Origin: Minisyncoccota bacterium
Lineage (GTDB): Bacteria; Patescibacteriota; Minisyncoccia; Phycocordibacterales; Zambryskibacteraceae
NCBI GenBank assembly: GCA_020059045.1
Contig: JAGVCW010000022.1
Coordinates: 1-21,943 of the forward strand
Length of the DNA stretch: 21,943 bases
Direction: 5' to 3'
Shown here: positions 1,688-18,104 of the stretch, in pieces
How positions within the stretch are numbered: position 1 is the first letter of the stretch
Layout of the letters: each line of letters opens with the position of its first letter
Made by a program: the position numbers and the translations under genes
Notes under the pieces: model-generated
Seen by the model: only the letters and a program-made list of their open reading frames with translations
What the model was told of the DNA's origin: nothing
The model's database searches: none

Positions 1688-3298
1688 ATGTCTGACCGCA
1701 TAAGGAATTGGTTAGTGCGAGTTATCGACCGCTTGGAGAATCACTTGCGAAATCGTCGGATTAGGAACGCGGCACGAGGGCAGCCTACACAGTCGACTTG
1801 GTGGCCAGCAGGGCTAAGGAGAGACCCAGCGACAATAATGACAGCCCTACTTCTGGCAGTAGTTTCGGTAGTTGCAATTTTTCAGCTTAGCAAACTACCA
1901 TCTGTTATCAGTGGAATTTTCAAATCTGGTGAGGATGCCTGCTTGACTGCTGATCTTGCAAGATCTGCTGGAAGGGTGGACGCAATCGCCGAAGCCGCAT
2001 GTGCGGCACACCGCGAGCCGATAGAGTGGGCAGTATTGGGGCTTCGAGCTCTCGTTGTTATTGTAGTAATTATTATCCTCGTATTAGTGTGGAAATTTGT
2101 TCGTAGGCGATGGATGAGACCTACTGCAGCTCCTACTGCTACAGCAGGAGCTGCAGTAGCAACTCCAAGAGGAGCGGGAACATCAGGAATTTCATGGAAG
2201 TATGTTGGTGTACTAGCTCCTATTGCTGTTTTCTTCATCTTCAGTTGGGCACTGTACGCCTTTTGGGCTGAGTTCAGTGGTGAAGCTGGAAGAAGTTATT
2301 TCTGGAACGAATGGTTCTGGAGCACAAACTTCTGGCTACTGCTCATAATTGCACTAGCAGCATGGATCGGAGCGTTCTTCGTCAGCAATAAAGCTTTCAT
2401 TCCTTATGTTGTGGTGATCGTTATTGTAGCCCTAGCTACAACGTACAAAGACATCCGAGAAGGTCTCGCTGGCAAAGTGGTAGCAGGACCACTGCCGGGT
2501 GTAGTCGTCGCATCCGCGGTTGCTACTTTCCCGGAGAACCCGAGTGATAAGTGGAGAACTGCCGATCTTGATTCGGCTCGTACATATCTCGATTTTCCAC
2601 AGGACTCGATGTTTCTCGAGATCTTTGCGTGTGAGTCGAGCGGTATTCACTACACCGATTCTGCACGCACAGAGGTGTTACGAGGGAGGGTTGATAGCTC
2701 CGATGTGGGTATTGCTCAAAACAATGAGCGAATCCATAGAGATCTACTTGATTCCCTTGCAGCAAGTCCGGACTCAGCGGAATATTATGACATATACACC
2801 ATCCGGGGTAATGTCAATTTCGCTAAACACCTGCGATATCGCAAGATCCGCGCAGGAAGAACCGGTCTTCGGATTTACGAAGACTGGAATGCTTCTCGTC
2901 ACTGTTGGGAAAGACATGAGGGTAGCCGGTCGCGTACTGTCGAGCAACAGGTGGTAGAGTCTCCATTTGGCCCACCTCCATCACCGGATCCAATCAGATT
3001 CGTTGATAGGAAGCTTGTAATCCCAGCCGGAGACACAAGCTGGACAAACACGATAACTAGGCCAAGTATGGAGTATGAAGTCTATTGGAATACGGGAGGA
3101 CCATCATATATCGACCTCATTGCTCTCGTAAATGGGCGAGACACAGTAAGTCTGAATGCGAGCGTTGCATACAGGCCGATACGGAACTTCCGTTCGATAT
3201 CGTATAGGACAAGGGTACCTGTAGAGATCCCTGTTGAAATTTATGTCTGTATGCTCAGGCGTAACGAGGCACGGATCCTAGCACAATGTACTGATTAG
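1688..3298 (+). CDS. hypothetical polytopic membrane protein, about 5-6 TM helices, with an Ala/Thr-rich linker and a roughly 270-aa soluble C-terminal domain
   Basis: The ORF is 536 aa with a ribosome-binding site. Hydrophobic segments: TALLLAVVSVVAIF, LVVIVVIIILVLVW, VGVLAPIAVFFIFSWALYAFW, FWLLLIIALAAWIGAFFV and IPYVVVIVIVALATT. No recognisable catalytic motif. GC is elevated relative to most of the window. Confidence 0.6.
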   Translation: MSDRIRNWLVRVIDRLENHLRNRRIRNAARGQPTQSTWWPAGLRRDPATIMTALLLAVVSVVAIFQLSKLPSVISGIFKSGEDACLTADLARSAGRVDAIAEAACAAHREPIEWAVLGLRALVVIVVIIILVLVWKFVRRRWMRPTAAPTATAGAAVATPRGAGTSGISWKYVGVLAPIAVFFIFSWALYAFWAEFSGEAGRSYFWNEWFWSTNFWLLLIIALAAWIGAFFVSNKAFIPYVVVIVIVALATTYKDIREGLAGKVVAGPLPGVVVASAVATFPENPSDKWRTADLDSARTYLDFPQDSMFLEIFACESSGIHYTDSARTEVLRGRVDSSDVGIAQNNERIHRDLLDSLAASPDSAEYYDIYTIRGNVNFAKHLRYRKIRAGRTGLRIYEDWNASRHCWERHEGSRSRTVEQQVVESPFGPPPSPDPIRFVDRKLVIPAGDTSWTNTITRPSMEYEVYWNTGGPSYIDLIALVNGRDTVSLNASVAYRPIRNFRSISYRTRVPVEIPVEIYVCMLRRNEARILAQCTD

Positions 3299-3369: not shown

Positions 3370-4338
3370 TTAATATGAAATTTTATTAACCACTCTTCCC
3401 TCTTTATCAAATAAAGTTATTGTTTCTCTTTCGTTTGCCCACATCTCCCATGACTTATTTAGATAAACTCTCCACTCGGGTAGATAGAAATCTTTGTCTT
3501 CCGAGTGTAGAGCTACACAGGACTCATATGAATAGTGACTTGCAATGAAGGCTTTACACTGGCTTGAGAGCCCGCAAACACCGTCGACACATCCCCGCTC
3601 AATATTGTTTCCTATTCGAGTTGAATCCTTTTCCTTGGGCGTGCGACATGTTGCCATAGATCTGACAAACTTATAACAGTCATCATCCAGACTTTCTACT
3701 CCCACTTCGGCGGCCGGATACGGGCAACTAGTATACATGTATGGGTAGAATTCATAAGTGGGAAGATTTTCAAGATACCCACTGCACTTGTTTACTTTAA
3801 AACTTGTTACAACAAATGGATTCTTGTTCTGGACATCACCAGTTATGATGGCTGCTTTCTCCCCTTTACCAAGAATTATAGGGCCAAGAAAATTTGACCC
3901 TTTAGTAATAAACAATTTTGCAGCTTGAGGTATTACTGCAACATCAGATTGAAGTTTCACTTGGTTCCCACCTAGGTTCGTAAACTTATTTCCTTTGCCA
4001 TTTGAAAGAGACCAACCAGTTATATTTACTCCCTCTACTGGCACATCTTGCGCATATAAATATATGTATTCTCTGGAAGGCTGTATTTCATATGTATTGC
4101 CTGATTGTATAGTAACTTTTCCATACCAAGGAGAAGCGTTGCCCTCGGACAATGTTGTGTTCCCAATTTGGCTACTTGATCCACTGGACGAATAAACACT
4201 TGTAGATGTTGTTCCAATGAGAGGACCTCCCATACTTGGGATAAACTTGCCCCGGCCAAGAAGCATAAGAAATATCACTGCCACTATCCCTATGATAAAC
4301 AGTACGTCTTCCCCTTTTGAGTAATTTGCTTTAAACAT
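3370..4338 (-). CDS. hypothetical N-terminally anchored extracellular protein with a Ser-rich linker and a Cys-rich C-terminal domain, positioned directly downstream of the pilin-like array
   Basis: The ORF is 322 aa. N-terminal TM (LFIIGIVAVIFLMLL), then SSSGSSS linker. There are 9 Cys in the last ~130 aa (CSGY, CPYP, DDDCYKF, ATCRTP, GCVDGVCGLSSQCKAF, ESCVALH). A putative own promoter, TTGTAA-17-TATTCT, lies on the minus strand in 4339-4412. Confidence 0.6.
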   Translation of the reverse strand: MFKANYSKGEDVLFIIGIVAVIFLMLLGRGKFIPSMGGPLIGTTSTSVYSSSGSSSQIGNTTLSEGNASPWYGKVTIQSGNTYEIQPSREYIYLYAQDVPVEGVNITGWSLSNGKGNKFTNLGGNQVKLQSDVAVIPQAAKLFITKGSNFLGPIILGKGEKAAIITGDVQNKNPFVVTSFKVNKCSGYLENLPTYEFYPYMYTSCPYPAAEVGVESLDDDCYKFVRSMATCRTPKEKDSTRIGNNIERGCVDGVCGLSSQCKAFIASHYSYESCVALHSEDKDFYLPEWRVYLNKSWEMWANERETITLFDKEGRVVNKISY

Positions 4339-4411
4339 TAAAGTAATTGTAATTTAGAATACTTTAAAATATTGCTTCTTACAATTAGCTTATGACCTTG
4401 CATTTCTTAAC

Positions 4412-4443
4412 AAAAGACCCCGCCTAGGCGGGGTCTTTTGTTA
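4412..4443. terminator. bidirectional Rho-independent terminator
   Basis: AAAA-GACCCCGCC-tag-GGCGGGGTC-TTTTGTT is a 9-bp GC-rich stem flanked by an A-run and a T-run. It ends the minus-strand pilin operon. Confidence 0.8.
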
Positions 4444-4492
4444 ATCATCATTCGTTATTCCTTATTCTCTATTCTTTATATCTTATTCTTCT
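4444..4492 (-). repeat. heptad-periodic purine tract, (NNN)GAAT repeated about 5 times on the minus strand, between the stop codon and the terminator; repeat family copy 1
   Basis: On the plus strand, ATTC occurs at 4450, 4457, 4464 and 4471 with period 7, and again at 4485. The reverse complement, GAAGAATAAGATATAAAGAATAGAGAATAAGGA, matches 14291-14323 at 30 of 33 positions. Confidence 0.6.
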
Positions 4493-4759
4493 TCAAAACG
4501 GAAATCTACCTGAAATATTTACACCGATTGTGTCCATAACAATCCTTATGATTCCGTAGACTCCGAACATTATAAACATTCCAATAACACCCCATAGCAT
4601 GTTTTTCTGACCTTGCTCTCGGTTCTTAGCATCTTCTGTATTAGTAAGGAATTGGAATATCCCCCACAGAAATACTAGGAGTGCTATCGCAAACATAAGG
4701 AGAATGAGTGGGTTTAAGATAAACTGATTTATCTTACCCAAAAACGGAGCAATGGACAT
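4493..4759 (-). CDS. TrbC/VirB2-like pilin-family small membrane protein, paralog 6, lacking the signal peptide and ectodomain
   Basis: Two TM helices separated by a charged loop (FLWGIFQFLTNTEDAKNREQGQKNMLWGVIGMFIMFGVYGII) match the family core of the upstream paralogs. It lies 15 nt after paralog 5. Confidence 0.5.
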   Translation of the reverse strand: MSIAPFLGKINQFILNPLILLMFAIALLVFLWGIFQFLTNTEDAKNREQGQKNMLWGVIGMFIMFGVYGIIRIVMDTIGVNISGRFPF

Positions 4760-4774
4760 GAGAAATGACTACCT

Positions 4775-5122
4775 CTATATTGCTGGGGGCTGGATTATTC
4801 CGCCACCACCCGTACCTGTTTCTGTCTGAAGAAGCTGAACGATCCCCCATACTGAAACCATAATGAATATTGCAACTATTCCCCAAATCATGATTTTCTT
4901 TCCTTCTTCTCTTTTGTCTTCATTTCCTGCGGCAAGAACAAATTTCATTAAACCCCATAGGAAAAACAGGAATGCGAGGCCGATGACGACTGGTGTTGCC
5001 ATATTGATAAGACCCCTGATCTGACTGATAACGCTCTGGGTATAGTTAAAAGTTGGATTCCCTACAGCAAGCACAATTGCTGGAAGTAGGAAACTGGCGC
5101 CAAGAGCAATAAACTTTTTCAT
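4775..5122 (-). CDS. TrbC/VirB2-like pilin-family protein with signal peptide, short ectodomain and TM hairpin; paralog 5
   Basis: Signal peptide MKKFIALGASFLLPAIVLAVG. Core PVVIGLAFLFFLWGLMKFVLAAGNEDKREEGKKIMIWGIVAIFIMVSVWGIV. Gly-rich C-terminal tail. Own minus-strand promoter at 5180-5208. Confidence 0.65.
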   Translation of the reverse strand: MKKFIALGASFLLPAIVLAVGNPTFNYTQSVISQIRGLINMATPVVIGLAFLFFLWGLMKFVLAAGNEDKREEGKKIMIWGIVAIFIMVSVWGIVQLLQTETGTGGGGIIQPPAI

Positions 5123-5179
5123 TGTTTGATAAAATTAAATAATAAAATACGTTTTAGTTATACCTAGTGGTATAGGCTT

Positions 5180-5208
5180 ATAATACAAGGATTTAATGCA
5201 AAATTCAA
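5180..5208 (-). promoter_or_regulatory. internal sigma70-type promoter, TTGAAT-17-TATTAT on the minus strand, inside the pilin array
   Basis: Reverse complement of 5203-5208 is TTGAAT, and of 5180-5185 is TATTAT, with a 17-nt spacer. Located in the 117-nt gap between paralogs 4 and 5. Confidence 0.5.
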
Positions 5209-5239
5209 GGGAAGTGTGGATAAAAAAGTGAAAGACAGA

Positions 5240-5557
5240 TTACGGTCCAATGATATAAGTGCTAAGCCCAAACTCAAATCTAAGTAACCAGACTATCCCC
5301 CAAACAGATACCATTATAAAAAGTGCTATAACACCCCAAGTCATTAACCTCTTTCCTTCTGTTCTTTTCTCTTCGTTACCTGAATTTAAGATAAAGTTTG
5401 CTAGCCCCCATAGGAAAAATAAGAAGGCGAGGCCGATGACGACTGGAAAAGCTAAGTTTAATACATTTCTGAATTCTGTGATTACTCCCTGTATACCTTG
5501 AGCCGCAACAAAAACGGGTAGAAAGGATGTGAGAATTAGAAAAAATCTATAGATCAT
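5240..5557 (-). CDS. TrbC/VirB2-like pilin-family protein, paralog 4
   Basis: Signal peptide MIYRFFLILTSFLPVFVAAQG. Core PVVIGLAFLFFLWGLANFILNSGNEEKRTEGKRLMTWGVIALFIMVSVWGIV is near-identical to paralog 5. A roughly 45-nt stretch (about 5404-5447) is about 85-90% identical to the corresponding stretch of paralog 5 (about 4949-4992). Confidence 0.65.
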   Translation of the reverse strand: MIYRFFLILTSFLPVFVAAQGIQGVITEFRNVLNLAFPVVIGLAFLFFLWGLANFILNSGNEEKRTEGKRLMTWGVIALFIMVSVWGIVWLLRFEFGLSTYIIGP

Positions 5558-5562
5558 TTAAG

Positions 5563-6024
5563 TTATGAAGTTCGAAGAAATGGAAACGCCAAATTACCCC
5601 CAAAAAAATCACTAAAAAGAATACTTACAATTCCCCAAACTGATACCATTACAAAGAGTCCTATCGCCCCCCAGAACATAAGACTCTTGCCCGCACTTAC
5701 TTTCTTCTCATCTCCTGCTGCCAAAACAAATCTCATAAGTCCCCAGAGAAAGACGAAAAACGCTAATCCTATGACAACTGGTATAAGTGAATTAATTAGA
5801 CCCACGAGTAAGCAAACAAATTCTGTGAAGTTACCAGGTTGCGTGCCTGGAGCAGTATTCCCATATGAGGGACACACTGAAGAAGAGGCCGGAGATGGAG
5901 AAGTGTTAACGGGGATAGGAAAACCGGCAAAAGCTTGCACGGGTAGAGATAGAATAATAATTAATATTACAAAGCAAGCTACGTAACTCCTCACCAAATT
6001 TATTTTGAATCTACTCGTATACAT
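5563..6024 (-). CDS. TrbC/VirB2-like pilin-family protein with an extended Pro/Ser-rich ectodomain carrying a Cys pair; paralog 3
   Basis: Signal peptide, then SPSPASSSVCPSYGNTAPGTQPGNFTEFVC with two Cys, then core PVVIGLAFFVFLWGLMRFVLAAGDEKKVSAGKSLMFWGAIGLFVMVSVWGIV. AAGGA ribosome-binding site. Lies 5 nt from paralog 4. Confidence 0.65.
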   Translation of the reverse strand: MYTSRFKINLVRSYVACFVILIIILSLPVQAFAGFPIPVNTSPSPASSSVCPSYGNTAPGTQPGNFTEFVCLLVGLINSLIPVVIGLAFFVFLWGLMRFVLAAGDEKKVSAGKSLMFWGAIGLFVMVSVWGIVSILFSDFFGGNLAFPFLRTS

Positions 6025-6027
6025 ATT

Positions 6028-6420
6028 TTATGGTCCTTGAAGTTGGTTCACTGTTGCTTGTATAGCCAAAGCTATTGCCCATGAGCCTAGAAGTATAAGG
6101 GCTCCAATGACTGAGGAGAAAAACGCACTTTTCGCACTCTTAAGTTTAGTTTCATCTCCACGTGCAGTAACAAACAGAAACCCTGCATAAATAATAGCAA
6201 GTGTAACTATTACCCCTCCAATAGGAAGTATCACGTCATTAATAACAGCAACTATGAAGTCGTAGAGTGTACCAGGAGCATTTCGGAGAGGATTGGGAAT
6301 ACAGACACTACCTTGAGGACATGGCGCGGATCCACCTGTATTACCCGCAAACACAATTCCTGGAATATAAACTACCAAGATAATGAGAAGAGAGAGAAGC
6401 ATTGTAAAAAGTTTTTTCAT
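6028..6420 (-). CDS. TrbC/VirB2-like pilin-family protein, the more classical VirB2-like variant with a Cys pair; paralog 2
   Basis: Signal peptide MKKLFTMLLSLLIILVVYIPGIVFAG. The ectodomain holds CPQGSVC. TM hairpin: IVTLAIIYAGFLFVTARGDETKLKSAKSAFFSSVIGALILLGSWAIALAI. Lies 3 nt from paralog 3. Confidence 0.6.
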   Translation of the reverse strand: MKKLFTMLLSLLIILVVYIPGIVFAGNTGGSAPCPQGSVCIPNPLRNAPGTLYDFIVAVINDVILPIGGVIVTLAIIYAGFLFVTARGDETKLKSAKSAFFSSVIGALILLGSWAIALAIQATVNQLQGP

Positions 6421-6445
6421 AAATAATTAATTCTTGCTTTAATAC

Positions 6446-6850
6446 TTAACCAAAAAGTGTAAACGGTTGATCAAGGAGAGCAACTGCAATAAATTTCACA
6501 ATAAGCCACGCGGCAAGTATAAAGAAGAAACCAATCATAGTATTTGTAAATATTCCTTTTGCCCTCTTAATTTTATCATCTGCTCCCCCTGCTGTAACCA
6601 TGAGAAAACCAGCTACGATAAACGCTATTGCTGCGAGTGGTACAGAGTAAAGTATTATGATGTTCATAATATTTATACCCAATGTGATTAGTGAGCCAAA
6701 GGTACAGGGGTCATCAAACTTGTTTTTAGTAGTATTAAAATTTGTATTGCAAACTATTAAGTTCGTATCCACAGCGAGAGTTGTAAGTGGCACGAGAAAT
6801 ACTACAATAATCAAAAAGAAACTTAGAGAAAATGTTAGTGAAGATTTCAT
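6446..6850 (-). CDS. TrbC/VirB2-like pilin-family protein, paralog 1; its start overlaps the stop of the upstream solute-binding-protein gene
   Basis: Signal peptide, an ectodomain with two Cys (LIVCNTNF...DDPCTFG), and the hairpin AAIAFIVAGFLMVTAGGADDKIKRAKGIFTNTMIGFFFILAAWLIV. The ATG (6848-6850) overlaps the TAA (6850-6852) of the 6850-8139 gene as TAATG. Confidence 0.6.
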   Translation of the reverse strand: MKSSLTFSLSFFLIIVVFLVPLTTLAVDTNLIVCNTNFNTTKNKFDDPCTFGSLITLGINIMNIIILYSVPLAAIAFIVAGFLMVTAGGADDKIKRAKGIFTNTMIGFFFILAAWLIVKFIAVALLDQPFTLFG

Positions 6851-8139
6851 TATTTGAAGAGATTTTCAAGCTCTGCACCTGCTTGGTTAATGGCAACATC
6901 CATCCTAACTCTTCCTCCCGTCACAGACTCAACCAAACGCAAGAAAATTTGATCTGTTGCCACGTTATCTGGGTCTAACCACCCCTGCGACCATAGTGCT
7001 CCATCGTAAAGTACGGGCCGCACTGCATCCGTTTGGCGCTCTGACAACAAGTCCCGACGTGCTGGAGCTATACCTAGCGATTCTGCCATAACTTTTACAA
7101 TGTCTTTACTTATTAATTCAGAAATAAAAGCGAAAGCTCCTGCGATATTTTGAGAATTTTTGACAATTGCAAGTCCTGTCATGTTGCCATACGTAATCTT
7201 TTTTATACCAGTACGTGACTGCGGGAAATTTGCAATATCAAAATTAAGATTTGGGTTCTTGATCTTTAAATACGAATACCTTGAGCCAAAATCGAAGTAG
7301 ACCGCTAGATCTCCAGCAAGAAATGCGGTTTCCGAAAGTGGAAGAGAGCGATTCCATGAGTAGAAGGGTTTAGCGGGGTTAGAAAATTCTGTATAGAAGG
7401 AAAGTGCTGCACTTGTGGGTAAAACCGGTGTGTTAAAGGATTTTCGAAGCACACCCGTCGCTACTCCATTTTCTATAGCAACTATTGGATTACCAGCTTG
7501 CATTATAAGAGCCGCCAGAATTTCCTTAGAATTTGAAATATTTTTATATTCACCAAGCGCGACCGTTGAACGAGTTACATTAAAAGCACTGTCTTTAGTA
7601 GTAAGAGCACCTGACAATGCGAAATATTCATCCCAAAATGTTGGCGGTGAAGCAAGCCCCGCGTCAGAAAAAATGTTTTTATTCCAATACATTACAAGAG
7701 GATCAATAGAGACTGGTAGTGCCAGTGCCCCAGCAGGTGTAAGGAAAATACTTCCCTCCTCAACAAACGTATCTCTGTAAGTTCTCTCTGAAATACTCTC
7801 AAAAGGAATGGTAAGTAGCTTGTTACGATTTTTGTAAACATTGTCATGAGATATGAAAATGACATCAGGTCCCACACCTTCAGCAAGGGCCTCTACAAAA
7901 TCACTATCAAAATTTTCTTCAGATTTCTCAACATAAGTCACTACTAAAGTCTGATCCTTAGATAGCTGTGATTGCCCCCAAATTTGAGAAAAAACAGACT
8001 GCGGCATGGTACCCCAGACAGTTATACTGCCACCTTCCTCCCCTCGCCCCCTACCCCCAGCTGCAAACAAAATGACACCGATAATGATAAAGGCTACAAA
8101 GACTCCAATAAATATGAGCTGAAATCTGCTTGTGGTCAT
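6850..8139 (-). CDS. extracellular solute-binding protein of ABC-type family 1 (MalE-like fold), TM-anchored, with no adjacent permease or ATPase
   Basis: N-terminal TM anchor. GPDVIFISHD resembles MalE GPDIIFWAHD. ALPVSIDPLVMYWNKNIF...PPTFWDEYFAL resembles [31 protein letters not shown]. The C-terminal DQIFLRLVESVTGG is typical of family-1 solute-binding proteins. Confidence 0.7.
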   Translation of the reverse strand: MTTSRFQLIFIGVFVAFIIIGVILFAAGGRGRGEEGGSITVWGTMPQSVFSQIWGQSQLSKDQTLVVTYVEKSEENFDSDFVEALAEGVGPDVIFISHDNVYKNRNKLLTIPFESISERTYRDTFVEEGSIFLTPAGALALPVSIDPLVMYWNKNIFSDAGLASPPTFWDEYFALSGALTTKDSAFNVTRSTVALGEYKNISNSKEILAALIMQAGNPIVAIENGVATGVLRKSFNTPVLPTSAALSFYTEFSNPAKPFYSWNRSLPLSETAFLAGDLAVYFDFGSRYSYLKIKNPNLNFDIANFPQSRTGIKKITYGNMTGLAIVKNSQNIAGAFAFISELISKDIVKVMAESLGIAPARRDLLSERQTDAVRPVLYDGALWSQGWLDPDNVATDQIFLRLVESVTGGRVRMDVAINQAGAELENLFK

Positions 8140-16889: not shown

Positions 16890-18104
16890 ATGAAAGCAGA
16901 AAAAACAAACAAAAAAAAGCAGGCAGGTAAAGTTGCTGCGTGGGAAGCAAAAGATATGACTAAAGAAATGATTACTGCTTCGTATTTTGGATTTATTCCC
17001 ACAAAAACTCCAGATGTATCGAAGGACGACCACTCGAAACTCCGATCACTTAAAGATCCGTATTACGAAACAGACCGAATACATGCAGAATATCCGTTCT
17101 CATTTGATGCATTAGAAAAAATTGCTTTGTTCCGATCATATCTTGATTGGGGGATTGCCTCTCTTCCACACCCGGTTCTAATGTCATACAGAAAGCCAGT
17201 TCATGGGACAGAACACAAGAAGGGTACAGACTCTATCCTAGGGCTTGAAGCGTTCGGGCTTTCTGGTAGCGCCGCTGAAGCATTGCTTCTCAGGTCTGCG
17301 CTTTCAATATTAGAGGACTTGGGCTTCAAAAATCTCTGCATAGAGATAAATAGCATTGGGGACAAGGAGTCAGTTGCTGATCTCGAGCGTGCTACCGGAA
17401 CATTTGTTCGCAAAAATATTAACGCCATGAGTGCTGAAGAGCGAAGACTCGCAAAAAAAGATGTCTTTGATCTACTTCGCACCCCAAGCGAGAGATCTGA
17501 TACTGTTCCGGAAGTTCCGAAATCAATAAGTTTTCTGTCGGAGAACTCACGAATTCATTTCAAGGAAGTGCTTGAGTATATTGAGAGCTTCAATACTCCT
17601 TATACTATCAATTCTTCTCTTATCGGCTCCCCTTGCTTCTGCTCCGAAACAACTTTTAAGATTATGGAAGACGATGGAAAGAACAAGCAAACTCTTGCCC
17701 TAGGATACAGATACTCAAGACTTTCAAAAAAGATTGGTTTCAAAAAAGAACTGCCAGCAATGGGGGTAACTATTTCCCTCGACAAGAAAGATTCTGCAAA
17801 GCTCCCTAAGAAACAGTTTAAACCAAAATTTTATCTTATACAGCTCGGACTCGGTGCTAAAATGCGTGCCCTAGAAGCCATAGAAGTTCTAAGACACGCG
17901 AAGATTCCTGTGGCATTCTCGCTTGGCAAAGACAAGTTCCAGAGTCAACTTGGAAGTGCCGAAAACATGAAGGTTCCTTATGTGCTTATAATTGGACAGA
18001 AGGAGGCAATAGAGAATTCTATTGTAATAAGAGATATGAATACTCGAGTGCAAGAGACCGTAGAAATTAAAGAGCTACCGGACTACATAAGGAAGTTGAA
18101 GTAA
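16890..18104 (+). CDS. histidyl-tRNA synthetase-like class II aaRS-fold protein with an anticodon-binding domain; the N-terminal catalytic motifs appear degenerate
   Basis: IEINSIGD resembles E. coli HisS [49 protein letters not shown] resembles [51 protein letters not shown] resembles [20 protein letters not shown]...[11 protein letters not shown] resembles GGRYDGL...PAVGFAMGLER. The C-terminal [21 protein letters not shown] is an anticodon-binding fold. RGxxD, LRPEGT and GRYRQF are not recognisable. Coupled to lepB (TAA then ATG). Confidence 0.55.
   Translation: [404 protein letters not shown]

What the first reader, a model, noticed from the sequence alone, without database searches (positions are those of the whole stretch)
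4775..6024. The pilin paralogs share a near-identical nucleotide core but have hypervariable ectodomains, implying recent duplication and diversification
Paralogs 4 and 5 share a roughly 45-nt stretch (about 4949-4992 versus 5404-5447) that is about 85-90% identical and encodes the identical PVVIGLAFLFFLWG segment. Their N-terminal ectodomains and C-terminal tails are unrelated: a GGGG tail, Pro/Ser-rich linkers, Cys pairs. Paralog 6 has lost the signal peptide altogether. This pattern fits diversifying selection on surface-exposed parts, such as antigenic or receptor variation, with gene conversion homogenising the membrane core.
Basis: seen in the sequence. Interest (0 to 1): 0.55.

Follow-up and report, generated by a model that had tools for sequence, protein, structure and literature searches.

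The report
Six-gene VirB2-like pilin operon, Patescibacteria
The flagged genes are three of six old, fixed-order copies of a small pilin-like membrane protein that ultrasmall Patescibacteria carry as a conserved operon; they are not recent duplicates, although short stretches of the membrane core do get copied between neighbouring genes.

Summary
Window 4493-6850 (minus strand) holds six tandem genes, p1 to p6, for small proteins of the T4SS_pilin family (PF18895, VirB2/TrbC-like). The finding covers p3, p4 and p5. p4 and p5 share a 45-nt stretch (4949-4993 vs 5402-5446; 40/45 identical, first 20 exact) encoding PVVIGLAFLFFLWGL. Outside that stretch, synonymous sites of every paralogue pair are at random expectation.

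The array is not recent. The same order (gyrA, methyltransferase, solute-binding-protein-like gene, then 4-7 pilin genes, most often six) recurs in over 60 species-level Patescibacteria genomes. p1, p2, p3, p5 and p6 have positional orthologues far closer than any in-genome paralogue. The sixth gene lacks a signal peptide in 99% of 78 homologues, so that is a conserved trait.

Gene conversion in the core is moderately supported here (P about 0.003-0.009, post hoc). Family-wide it is strongly supported: 24 of 83 loci have exact matches of 20 nt or more between neighbouring mid-array genes whose ends are unrelated. Diversifying selection cannot be tested, because dS is saturated and pN is below pS everywhere.

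Such arrays are published (PMC12102498, PMC10633639). This is a new member of a known kind, with new evolutionary detail.

The parts
6850..8139 (-). TM-anchored solute-binding-protein-like gene, first gene of the module. Its stop codon overlaps the p1 start by 1 nt (TAATG).
   Evidence: Pfam SBP_bac_1 4.3e-15 and SBP_bac_8 4.9e-15. Weak MalE-like NCBIfam hit. Directly upstream of the array in 62 related loci. The overlap was read from the sequence.
6446..6850 (-). p1, 134 aa. Signal peptide, a Cys pair (C34, C49), pre-TM helix, then the TM1-loop-TM2 hairpin.
   Evidence: PF18895 at 34.0 bits, above the 26.6 cut-off. Orthologue clade bootstrap 0.96. 93% of p1-type genes have at least 2 Cys before the core.
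6028..6420 (-). p2, 130 aa. The member most like TrbC/VirB2.
   Evidence: PF18895 at 23.4 bits (below cut-off) and TrbC PF04956 at 19.7 bits. Of 44 p2-type orthologues, 44 hit PF18895 and 41 hit PF04956, best 4.3e-10. Clade bootstrap 1.0.
5563..6024 (-). p3, 153 aa. Long Pro/Ser-rich N-terminal segment with a Cys pair.
   Evidence: PF18895 at 32.7 bits. The best hits are slot-3 genes of other genomes; the best in-genome paralogue ranks 14th.
5240..5557 (-). p4, 105 aa. Occupies the labile slot of the array.
   Evidence: PF18895 at 46.0 bits. Its best hit overall is window p5 at 56% amino-acid identity. It falls beside the p5 clade in the tree.
5402..5446 (-). p4 copy of the 45-nt near-identical patch at the start of TM1.
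   Evidence: 40/45 nt identical to 4949-4993, with the first 20 nt exact.
5180..5208 (-). Promoter-like TTGAAT-17 nt-TATTAT inside the 117-nt spacer between p4 and p5.
   Evidence: Found by the consensus scan. The TTG and TAT.AT positions are invariant in an alignment of six related spacers. Function is inferred.
4775..5122 (-). p5, 115 aa. The best-conserved type. Ends in a GGGG tail.
   Evidence: PF18895 at 50.0 bits. Orthologues are 59-65% identical. The AF2 model shows a helical hairpin, residues 25-63 and 68-102, with pLDDT 77.7.
4949..4993 (-). p5 copy of the 45-nt patch, the probable gene-conversion tract.
   Evidence: 11 of 15 codons identical against 5.6 expected, P about 0.003. Mosaic test against five orthologues gives P about 0.008-0.009. 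A rare Phe is shared by p3, p4 and p5.
4493..4759 (-). p6, 88 aa. The last slot; has no signal peptide.
   Evidence: PF18895 at 29.9 bits. The p6 type has 78 members, median 87.5 aa, and 1% have an N-terminal hydrophobic segment. Clade bootstrap 0.97.
4407..4444 (-). 17-bp GC-rich hairpin followed by a U run. Intrinsic terminator of the operon, usable in both directions.
   Evidence: Fold energy -29.1 kcal/mol, z-score -7.3, and none of 200 shuffles folded as well.

Best explanation
The interval holds three of six tandem genes for small VirB2/TrbC-like proteins of the T4SS_pilin family. They lie on the chromosome of a Patescibacteria (Paceibacteria-type) bacterium.

**Protein layout.** Each protein has a Sec signal peptide (absent in p6). 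Then come a slot-specific N-terminal segment, a short helix ending in an invariant Asn, two hydrophobic helices joined by a charged loop, and a short tail. With the signal peptide removed, both variable ends should face outward and the loop inward (inferred from VirB2/TraA topology).

**Age of the array.** It is an old operon of fixed order: a solute-binding-protein-like gene, p1 to p4, an internal promoter-like site, p5, p6 and a terminator. The six are ancient, non-redundant paralogues and not recent copies. Purifying selection holds the core.

**Gene conversion.** On top of that selection, short gene-conversion tracts of about 20-200 nt pass between neighbouring mid-array genes (slots 3 to 5). 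These tracts re-homogenise parts of TM1 or TM2 and leave the exposed ends distinct. In this window the trace is the 45-nt p4/p5 patch.

**Function (inferred).** The six subunits probably co-assemble into one envelope structure, a heteromeric pilus-like stalk or channel. A type IV secretion machine encoded elsewhere in the genome probably serves it. p5 is the likely major subunit.
For: **Shown**
- Family hits.
- Helical hairpin model.
- Arrays of 4-7 genes (most often six, 36 of 85 sources, i.e. 84 loci plus the window) in nearly all loci.
- Synteny of gyrA, methyltransferase and the solute-binding-like gene with the array in 62 loci.
- Positional orthology.
- Saturated synonymous sites in all paralogue pairs.
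- Core versus flank pN.
- Localised p4/p5 identity island, and mosaicism against orthologues.
- A Phe at the eighth patch residue is rare in types 4 (0/30), 5 (2/135) and 3 (7/60), yet is present in window p3, p4 and p5.
- Family-wide excess of long exact matches within arrays. The median is 22 nt within arrays against 11 nt between genomes at core identity 0.7-0.8. 24 of 83 loci have a match of 20 nt or more, mostly between adjacent genes just before the last slot.
- In the 36 pairs with such matches, the ends are unrelated. Median amino-acid identity is 0.19 (N-terminal), 0.25 (pre-TM helix), 0.68 (core) and 0.21 (tail).
- Operon signals.

**From papers**
- Southlakia epibionticum has six tandem PF18895 genes (SEML1_0014-0019). 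All score as essential in Tn-seq (PMC10633639).
- 441 VirB2-like arrays have been reported in Patescibacteria (PMC12102498).

**Inferred**
- Co-assembly is suggested by single ORFs that fuse 3-8 such hairpin units.
Against: - No T4SS gene (VirB4, VirB6, VirD4) lies in the 21.9-kb window or within 6 kb of the array in the related loci. The link to a secretion machine therefore rests on family names and on Saccharibacteria.
- Direct homology to Agrobacterium VirB2 was not detectable (hhalign E about 0.2).
- Fold searches cannot tell a helical hairpin apart from many unrelated proteins.
- Orthology of p3 and p5 on the 84-column core alone has weak bootstrap support (0.17-0.48). It rests on full-length BLAST ranks.
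- The conversion test in this window is post hoc. A 20-nt exact run is only at about the 93rd percentile of the control pairs.
- Some long identical stretches in metagenome-assembled genomes could be assembly artefacts, for example L038.
- The Tn-seq essentiality of the upstream array genes may reflect polar effects.
Confidence: 0.7

Rival explanations
1. The genes are recently duplicated pilin copies under diversifying selection on their surface-exposed ends, giving antigenic or receptor variation. Gene conversion keeps the membrane core uniform.
For: - The ends evolve 2-3.5 times faster than the core and carry the indels.
- Slots 4 and 5 show birth and death of copies and lineage-specific duplications, for example L073 5/7 and L008 5/6.
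- Core-limited identity islands are common.
- The same idea is raised for Patescibacteria arrays in PMC12102498.
- It has a precedent in Bartonella trwL (PMC2883598).
Against: - Five of the six genes have ancient positional orthologues.
- Synonymous sites are saturated.
- Slot-specific features are conserved: the Cys pair of p1, and the missing signal peptide of p6.
- pN never exceeds pS.
- Three samples carry an identical array, 0 differences in 2,461 nt.
- All six homologues are essential in S. epibionticum, which argues against redundancy.
Confidence: 0.15
2. There is no gene conversion in this window. The 45-nt patch is a chance run on top of strong purifying selection on TM1, perhaps helped by local codon preference.
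For: - Identical-codon enrichment in the patch against the rest of the core is not significant (Fisher P = 0.12).
- 7.4% of between-genome pairs at the same core identity also have an exact run of 20 nt or more.
- The region was picked by eye before it was tested.
Against: - 11 of 15 codons are identical against 5.6 expected (P about 0.003).
- An independent mosaic test against five orthologues places the excess similarity on the same segment (P about 0.008-0.009).
- p5 carries Phe and Trp where all five close orthologues aligned have Met or Leu and Tyr. This matches p4.
- The same kind of island recurs in 24 of 83 loci.
Confidence: 0.2
3. The six proteins are not pilus subunits. Together with the co-transcribed solute-binding-like protein they form a membrane-embedded multi-hairpin complex, for uptake or host contact, that works without a type IV secretion machine.
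For: - The solute-binding-like gene is fused in transcription to the array in 62 loci.
- No T4SS gene lies nearby.
- Single ORFs with 3-8 fused hairpin units and no internal signal peptides exist. These are hard to fit with a filament polymerised from monomers.
Against: - The family and its p2 type match TrbC/VirB2 and a Mycoplasma ICE pilin-like model.
- In S. epibionticum the homologous six-gene array lies inside the T4SS cluster, next to VirB6-, PrgI- and VirB4-like genes.
- Pilin genes are often encoded away from virB4 in this phylum. They are near virB4 in only 1,135 of 1,948 assemblies (PMC12102498).
Confidence: 0.12

Closest known systems
VirB2-like pilin arrays of Patescibacteria. Quinonero-Coronel et al. 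2025 (PMC12102498) report 441 arrays of 2-11 genes. Wang et al. 2023 (PMC10633639) describe the six-gene essential array SEML1_0014-0019 of Southlakia epibionticum.
   Same: - Same Pfam families (PF18895, with PF04956 for some members).
- Same phylum and tandem co-oriented arrangement.
- The same typical number of genes (six).
- Low identity between members.
   Different: - Here the array sits next to gyrA and is translationally coupled to a solute-binding-like gene. No T4SS gene lies within the contig.
- p4/p5 identity (56%) slightly exceeds the published within-array maximum of 54%.
- The papers I read do not mention the fixed slot order, the last member without a signal peptide, or core-limited gene conversion.
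Bartonella Trw type IV secretion system: tandemly amplified trwL (VirB2 homologue) and trwJ copies. Source is Nystedt et al. 2008, as cited in PMC2883598.
   Same: - Several co-expressed VirB2-type paralogues in tandem.
- Exposed parts diversify faster than the rest of the machine.
- Recombination occurs among copies ('diversifying selection and concerted evolution').
   Different: - Trw copies lie inside a complete T4SS locus of a diderm.
- Their copy number varies between close species, and orthologues are hard to assign.
- Here five of six slots are stable over deep divergence.
Agrobacterium VirB2 / RP4 TrbC conjugative pilins (Pfam PF04956).
   Same: - Small size and a signal peptide.
- Two hydrophobic helices joined by a short charged loop.
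- p2-type genes hit PF04956.
   Different: - Profile-profile comparison with three VirB2 sequences was not significant.
- VirB2 is a single gene next to virB1 and virB3. Here there are six genes and no virB neighbours.
Mbov_0395 family pilin-like conjugal transfer protein of Mycoplasma ICEs (NCBIfam NF045849).
   Same: p5 and p2 match this model at E = 1.1e-7 and 5.3e-5. It comes from a monoderm conjugation system, as proposed for the Patescibacteria T4SS.
   Different: The scores (31.4 and 22.8 bits) are below the model's cut-off of 40. That family is not known to me as a six-gene array (from my own knowledge).

Membership tests
Pfam PF18895 T4SS_pilin | Match to the family model at or above the gathering score of 26.6 bits | tested here: met
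   p1 scores 34.0, p3 32.7, p4 46.0, p5 50.0 and p6 29.9 bits. p2 scores 23.4, below the cut-off, but 44 of 44 p2-type orthologues match at E <= 0.01.
TrbC/VirB2 pilins (PF04956) | Sequence match to the TrbC/VirB2 model | tested here: inconclusive
   Window p2 scores 19.7 bits against a cut-off of 27.9. 41 of 44 p2-type orthologues match at E <= 0.01, best 4.3e-10. hhalign against three Agrobacterium-type VirB2 sequences gives E about 0.2.
TrbC/VirB2 pilins (PF04956) | Signal peptide followed by two hydrophobic helices joined by a short charged loop | tested here: met
   The alignment and the AF2 model show helices at residues 3-20, 25-63 and 68-102. p6 lacks the signal peptide. Cleavage itself was not tested.
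TrbC/VirB2 pilins (PF04956) | Encoded within a T4SS gene cluster, next to virB3/virB4-type genes | tested here: not met
   No such gene lies in the 21.9-kb window. None was found among the large flanking ORFs of the related loci. The rest of the genome is not available.
TrbC/VirB2 pilins (PF04956) | Polymerises into an extracellular pilus | not testable with these tools
   Needs microscopy or proteomics. Fold searches were uninformative.
Patescibacteria VirB2-like pilin arrays (PMC12102498) | Two or more VirB2-like genes in tandem in a Patescibacteria genome, with low identity between members | tested here: met
   Six tandem genes. Identity to p1 is 19-32%. The relatives are all Patescibacteria metagenome-assembled genomes.
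Antigenic-variation pilin systems with silent cassettes (for example Neisseria pilE/pilS; from my own knowledge) | One expressed gene plus promoterless, truncated donor copies, with conversion acting on the variable regions | tested here: not met
   All six genes are complete ORFs with start codons and conserved orthologues. The identity islands lie in the conserved core and not in the variable ends.
Antigenic-variation pilin systems with silent cassettes | High strain-level polymorphism of the exposed regions | tested here: inconclusive
   The only strain-level data are three contigs from three samples with 0 differences in 2,461 nt of array. No close relative of the window itself was found.

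The most novel reading that the evidence does not exclude
In Paceibacteria-type Patescibacteria the six hairpin proteins and the co-translated orphan solute-binding-like protein may form one fixed-stoichiometry envelope organelle. Each slot would have its own exposed decoration. Recurrent core-limited gene conversion between neighbouring slots would keep the membrane helices mutually compatible while the exposed ends stay different. Lineages that fuse 3-8 units into one polypeptide would be the extreme form of the same design. That would be a heteromeric, possibly T4SS-independent, host-contact or uptake device and not a classical single-pilin conjugative pilus.
Probability: 0.2. Interest if true: 0.65.

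Novelty: new member of a known kind. Interest (0 to 1): 0.42.

Why it matters
Patescibacteria depend on host cells. In the one species that can be genetically manipulated, the homologous six-gene pilin array is essential for growth on the host (PMC10633639). Three results here change how these arrays should be read:

- The array has a fixed slot order over deep divergence.
- Its last member always lacks a signal peptide.
- In this clade it is tied to a solute-binding-like gene and not to the secretion ATPases.

These points argue that the copies are distinct parts of one structure and not interchangeable antigenic variants. The recurrent core-only gene conversion gives a concrete, testable evolutionary signature. 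If the co-assembly reading holds, it tells experimenters to look for a heteromeric filament or channel and to delete the genes one at a time with non-polar alleles.

Tried and rejected
- **PDB sequence search.** The family profile gave nothing significant. The pKM101 TraM pilin appeared at E = 0.066 among GPCR false positives.
- **Profile-profile comparison.** hhalign against three plasmid VirB2 sequences was not significant.
- **dN/dS per domain.** pS is 0.54-1.0 in every available orthologue pair, so omega cannot be estimated.
- **Strain comparison.** L001, L002 and L003 are identical. No relative of window p5 lies between 65% and 100% identity.
- **Fisher test.** Identical codons in the patch against the rest of the core gave P = 0.12. 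A codon-usage expectation test replaced it.
- **First bootstrap run.** It failed on undefined distances and was repeated.
- **Lytic transglycosylase suspicion.** I suspected the 536-aa neighbour (1688-3298) might be a VirB1-like lytic transglycosylase. Pfam, NCBIfam and PDB give no support.
- **Terminator scan.** The consensus terminator scan missed the hairpin at 4407-4444. Direct folding found it.
Full report
**What is there.**
- The minus strand of 4493-6850 carries six tandem small ORFs:
  - p1 6446-6850
  - p2 6028-6420
  - p3 5563-6024
  - p4 5240-5557
  - p5 4775-5122
  - p6 4493-4759
- The finding's interval covers p3, p4 and p5.
- All six match Pfam PF18895 (T4SS_pilin). Five score above the gathering cut-off. 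p2 is just below it and also gives a weak TrbC/VirB2 hit.
- The rest of the window is housekeeping: GyrA, a SAM methyltransferase, S1, Pth, LepB, YbeY and FtsA. Other genes are a Band 7 protein, an unannotated 536-aa membrane protein and a Cys-rich protein. There is no VirB4, VirB6 or VirD4.
- The window is a whole 21,943-bp contig.

**Checking the observation.**
- p4 and p5 both encode PVVIGLAFLFFLWGL.
- In correct register (4949-4993 vs 5402-5446) the DNA is 40/45 identical, and the first 20 nt are exact.
- 11 of 15 codons are identical against 5.6 expected from the window's codon usage (P about 0.003, post hoc).
- The phrase 'near-identical core' is too strong.
  - The 55-codon TM1-loop-TM2 core is 73% nt identical for p4/p5 and 64-65% for p3 against either.
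  - Outside the patch, identical-codon counts among same-residue positions equal random expectation for p4/p5 (19 vs 19.5).
  - The same holds over whole genes for p3/p4, p3/p5, p5/p6 and p1/p2. Synonymous sites are saturated.
- The N-terminal regions are not wholly unrelated. All six share a pre-TM helix ending in an invariant Asn.
- p6 indeed has no signal peptide.

**The array is old.**
- Contigs carrying the closest p5 relatives (59-65% identity) show the same layout: gyrA, methyltransferase, solute-binding-like gene, then six pilin genes.
- A scan of species-representative genomes returned 79 further loci, all Patescibacteria metagenome-assembled genomes (Zambryski-, Campbell-, Kaiser-, Taylorbacteria and the like).
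- A local HMM found tandem arrays of 4-7 members in nearly all of them, most often six (36 of 85 sources, i.e. 84 loci plus the window).
- The solute-binding-like gene lies directly upstream in 62 loci. Its stop often abuts or overlaps the first pilin start. In the window the overlap is 1 nt.
- For p1, p2, p3, p5 and p6 the best hits are same-slot genes of other genomes. The best in-genome paralogue ranks 61st, 84th, 14th, 9th and 136th.
- Neighbour-joining on 84 core columns recovers the p1, p2 and p6 clades with bootstrap 0.96, 1.0 and 0.97. The p3/p4/p5 group is poorly resolved (0.17-0.48).
- The slot order 1-2-3-(3/4/5)-5-6 dominates.
- The p6 type (78 genes, median 87.5 aa) has an N-terminal hydrophobic segment in 1% of cases. 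The missing signal peptide is therefore a conserved trait.
- 93% of p1-type genes carry a Cys pair before the core.
- p4 is the exception: its best hit is window p5.

**Gene conversion.**
- Against five p5 orthologues, window p5 is more like window p4 over codons about 17-49. It is more like its orthologues in the signal peptide, TM2 and the tail.
  - A maximal-segment permutation test gives P about 0.008.
  - The segment VIGLAFLFFLW beats even the best orthologue per codon (P about 0.009).
- Window p5 has Phe and Trp where all five close orthologues aligned have Met or Leu and Tyr, which matches p4.
- The Phe at this position is rare in types 4 (0/30), 5 (2/135) and 3 (7/60), yet it is present in window p3, p4 and p5.
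- Family-wide, at core amino-acid identity 0.7-0.8, within-array pairs have a median longest exact match of 22 nt (75% reach 20 nt or more). Between-genome pairs have a median of 11 nt (7.4% reach 20 nt or more).
- 24 of 83 loci have a within-array match of 20 nt or more, and 10 have 30 nt or more. Most are between adjacent genes just before the last slot.
- In the 36 such pairs, median amino-acid identity is 0.68 in the core, 0.19 in the N-terminal region, 0.25 in the pre-TM helix and 0.21 in the tail. In L056 slots 4/5, for example, all 165 nt of the core (55 codons) are identical while the ends are unrelated.
- Core-limited conversion is therefore real for mid-array slots. In this window it is a small example.

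**Selection.**
- In every orthologue comparison pS is 0.54-1.0, which is saturated.
- pN is 0.06-0.24 in the core and 0.18-0.46 in the flanking regions, and it never exceeds pS.
- Three contigs from three samples carry identical arrays.
- Diversifying selection can be neither shown nor excluded. Relaxed constraint is sufficient to explain the data.

**What the proteins are.**
- The AF2 model of p5 (pLDDT 77.7) shows a signal-peptide helix and a long helical hairpin.
- Fold and PDB sequence searches are uninformative.
- Of 44 p2-type orthologues, 41 match TrbC/VirB2.
- p5 and p2 match a Mycoplasma ICE pilin-like model below its cut-off.
- hhalign to Agrobacterium-type VirB2 is not significant.
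- The family is very large: 63,102 representative clusters at E <= 0.001.
- Some representatives are single ORFs with 3-8 fused hairpin units and no internal signal peptides. This hints that the units work together.

**Operon signals.**
- Gene gaps are 25, 3, 5, 117 and 15 nt.
- The 117-nt p4-p5 spacer holds TTGAAT-17 nt-TATTAT, and its key positions are invariant in six relatives.
- A strong hairpin terminator follows p6.

**Literature.**
- VirB2-like arrays of 2-11 genes are reported in 383 Patescibacteria assemblies, with a suggested role in host adaptation (PMC12102498).
- S. epibionticum has six tandem PF18895 genes inside its T4SS cluster. All score as essential (PMC10633639; reviewed in PMC12857230). 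Polar effects are a caveat.
- Bartonella trwL is the closest precedent for tandem VirB2 paralogues with diversification and recombination (PMC2883598).

**Verdict.** This is a known kind of locus. 'Recent duplication' is refuted, core gene conversion is supported in a limited form, and diversifying selection is untested.

Noticed in passing
window 6850-8139 (-): A TM-anchored solute-binding-protein-like gene (SBP_bac_1) is translationally coupled to the first pilin gene. It sits directly upstream of the array in 62 related loci. No ABC permease or ATPase lies nearby, so it is an orphan binding protein tied to the pilin operon.
   Followed up: partly
window 5180-5208 (-), within spacer 5123-5239: A promoter-like TTGAAT-17 nt-TATTAT lies in the only long intergenic gap of the array. 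The spacer is 103-121 nt in the three relatives where it was measured, and the key motif positions are invariant in six. This suggests separate, perhaps higher, expression of p5 and p6.
   Followed up: partly
window 4407-4444: A 17-bp GC-rich hairpin with flanking A and U runs (-29.1 kcal/mol, z-score -7.3) lies about 50 nt after the p6 stop. It is a likely bidirectional terminator. The consensus scan missed it.
   Followed up: yes
window 1688-3298 (+): A 536-aa multi-TM protein has no Pfam, NCBIfam or PDB match. Homologues lie convergent to the array in at least 10 related loci. My guess of a lysozyme-like motif found no support.
   Followed up: partly
window 3370-4338 (-): A 322-aa protein has an N-terminal TM segment, a weak lamin-tail-domain hit and a Cys-rich C-terminus. 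Homologues lie just downstream of the array in 4-5 close relatives.
   Followed up: no
P0024, P0034, P0042 (library hits): Single predicted proteins of 368, 552 and 820 aa contain 3, 6 and 8 tandem pilin hairpin units with no internal signal peptides. They look like fused 'poly-pilins'. I could not check their genomic context.
   Followed up: partly
L052 2784-4799; L038 slots 3 and 4: L052 has a 671-aa ORF whose only Pfam match is a C-terminal pilin domain. In L038 two neighbouring genes are identical over about 109 codons and then diverge. That is either a very recent duplication or an assembly artefact.
   Followed up: no
window 16890-18104 (+): A 404-aa ORF matches only the HGTP anticodon-binding domain clearly. 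Its match to the His-tRNA synthetase core is weak (E = 3e-4, below the cut-off). It is a divergent class II synthetase-like gene.
   Followed up: no
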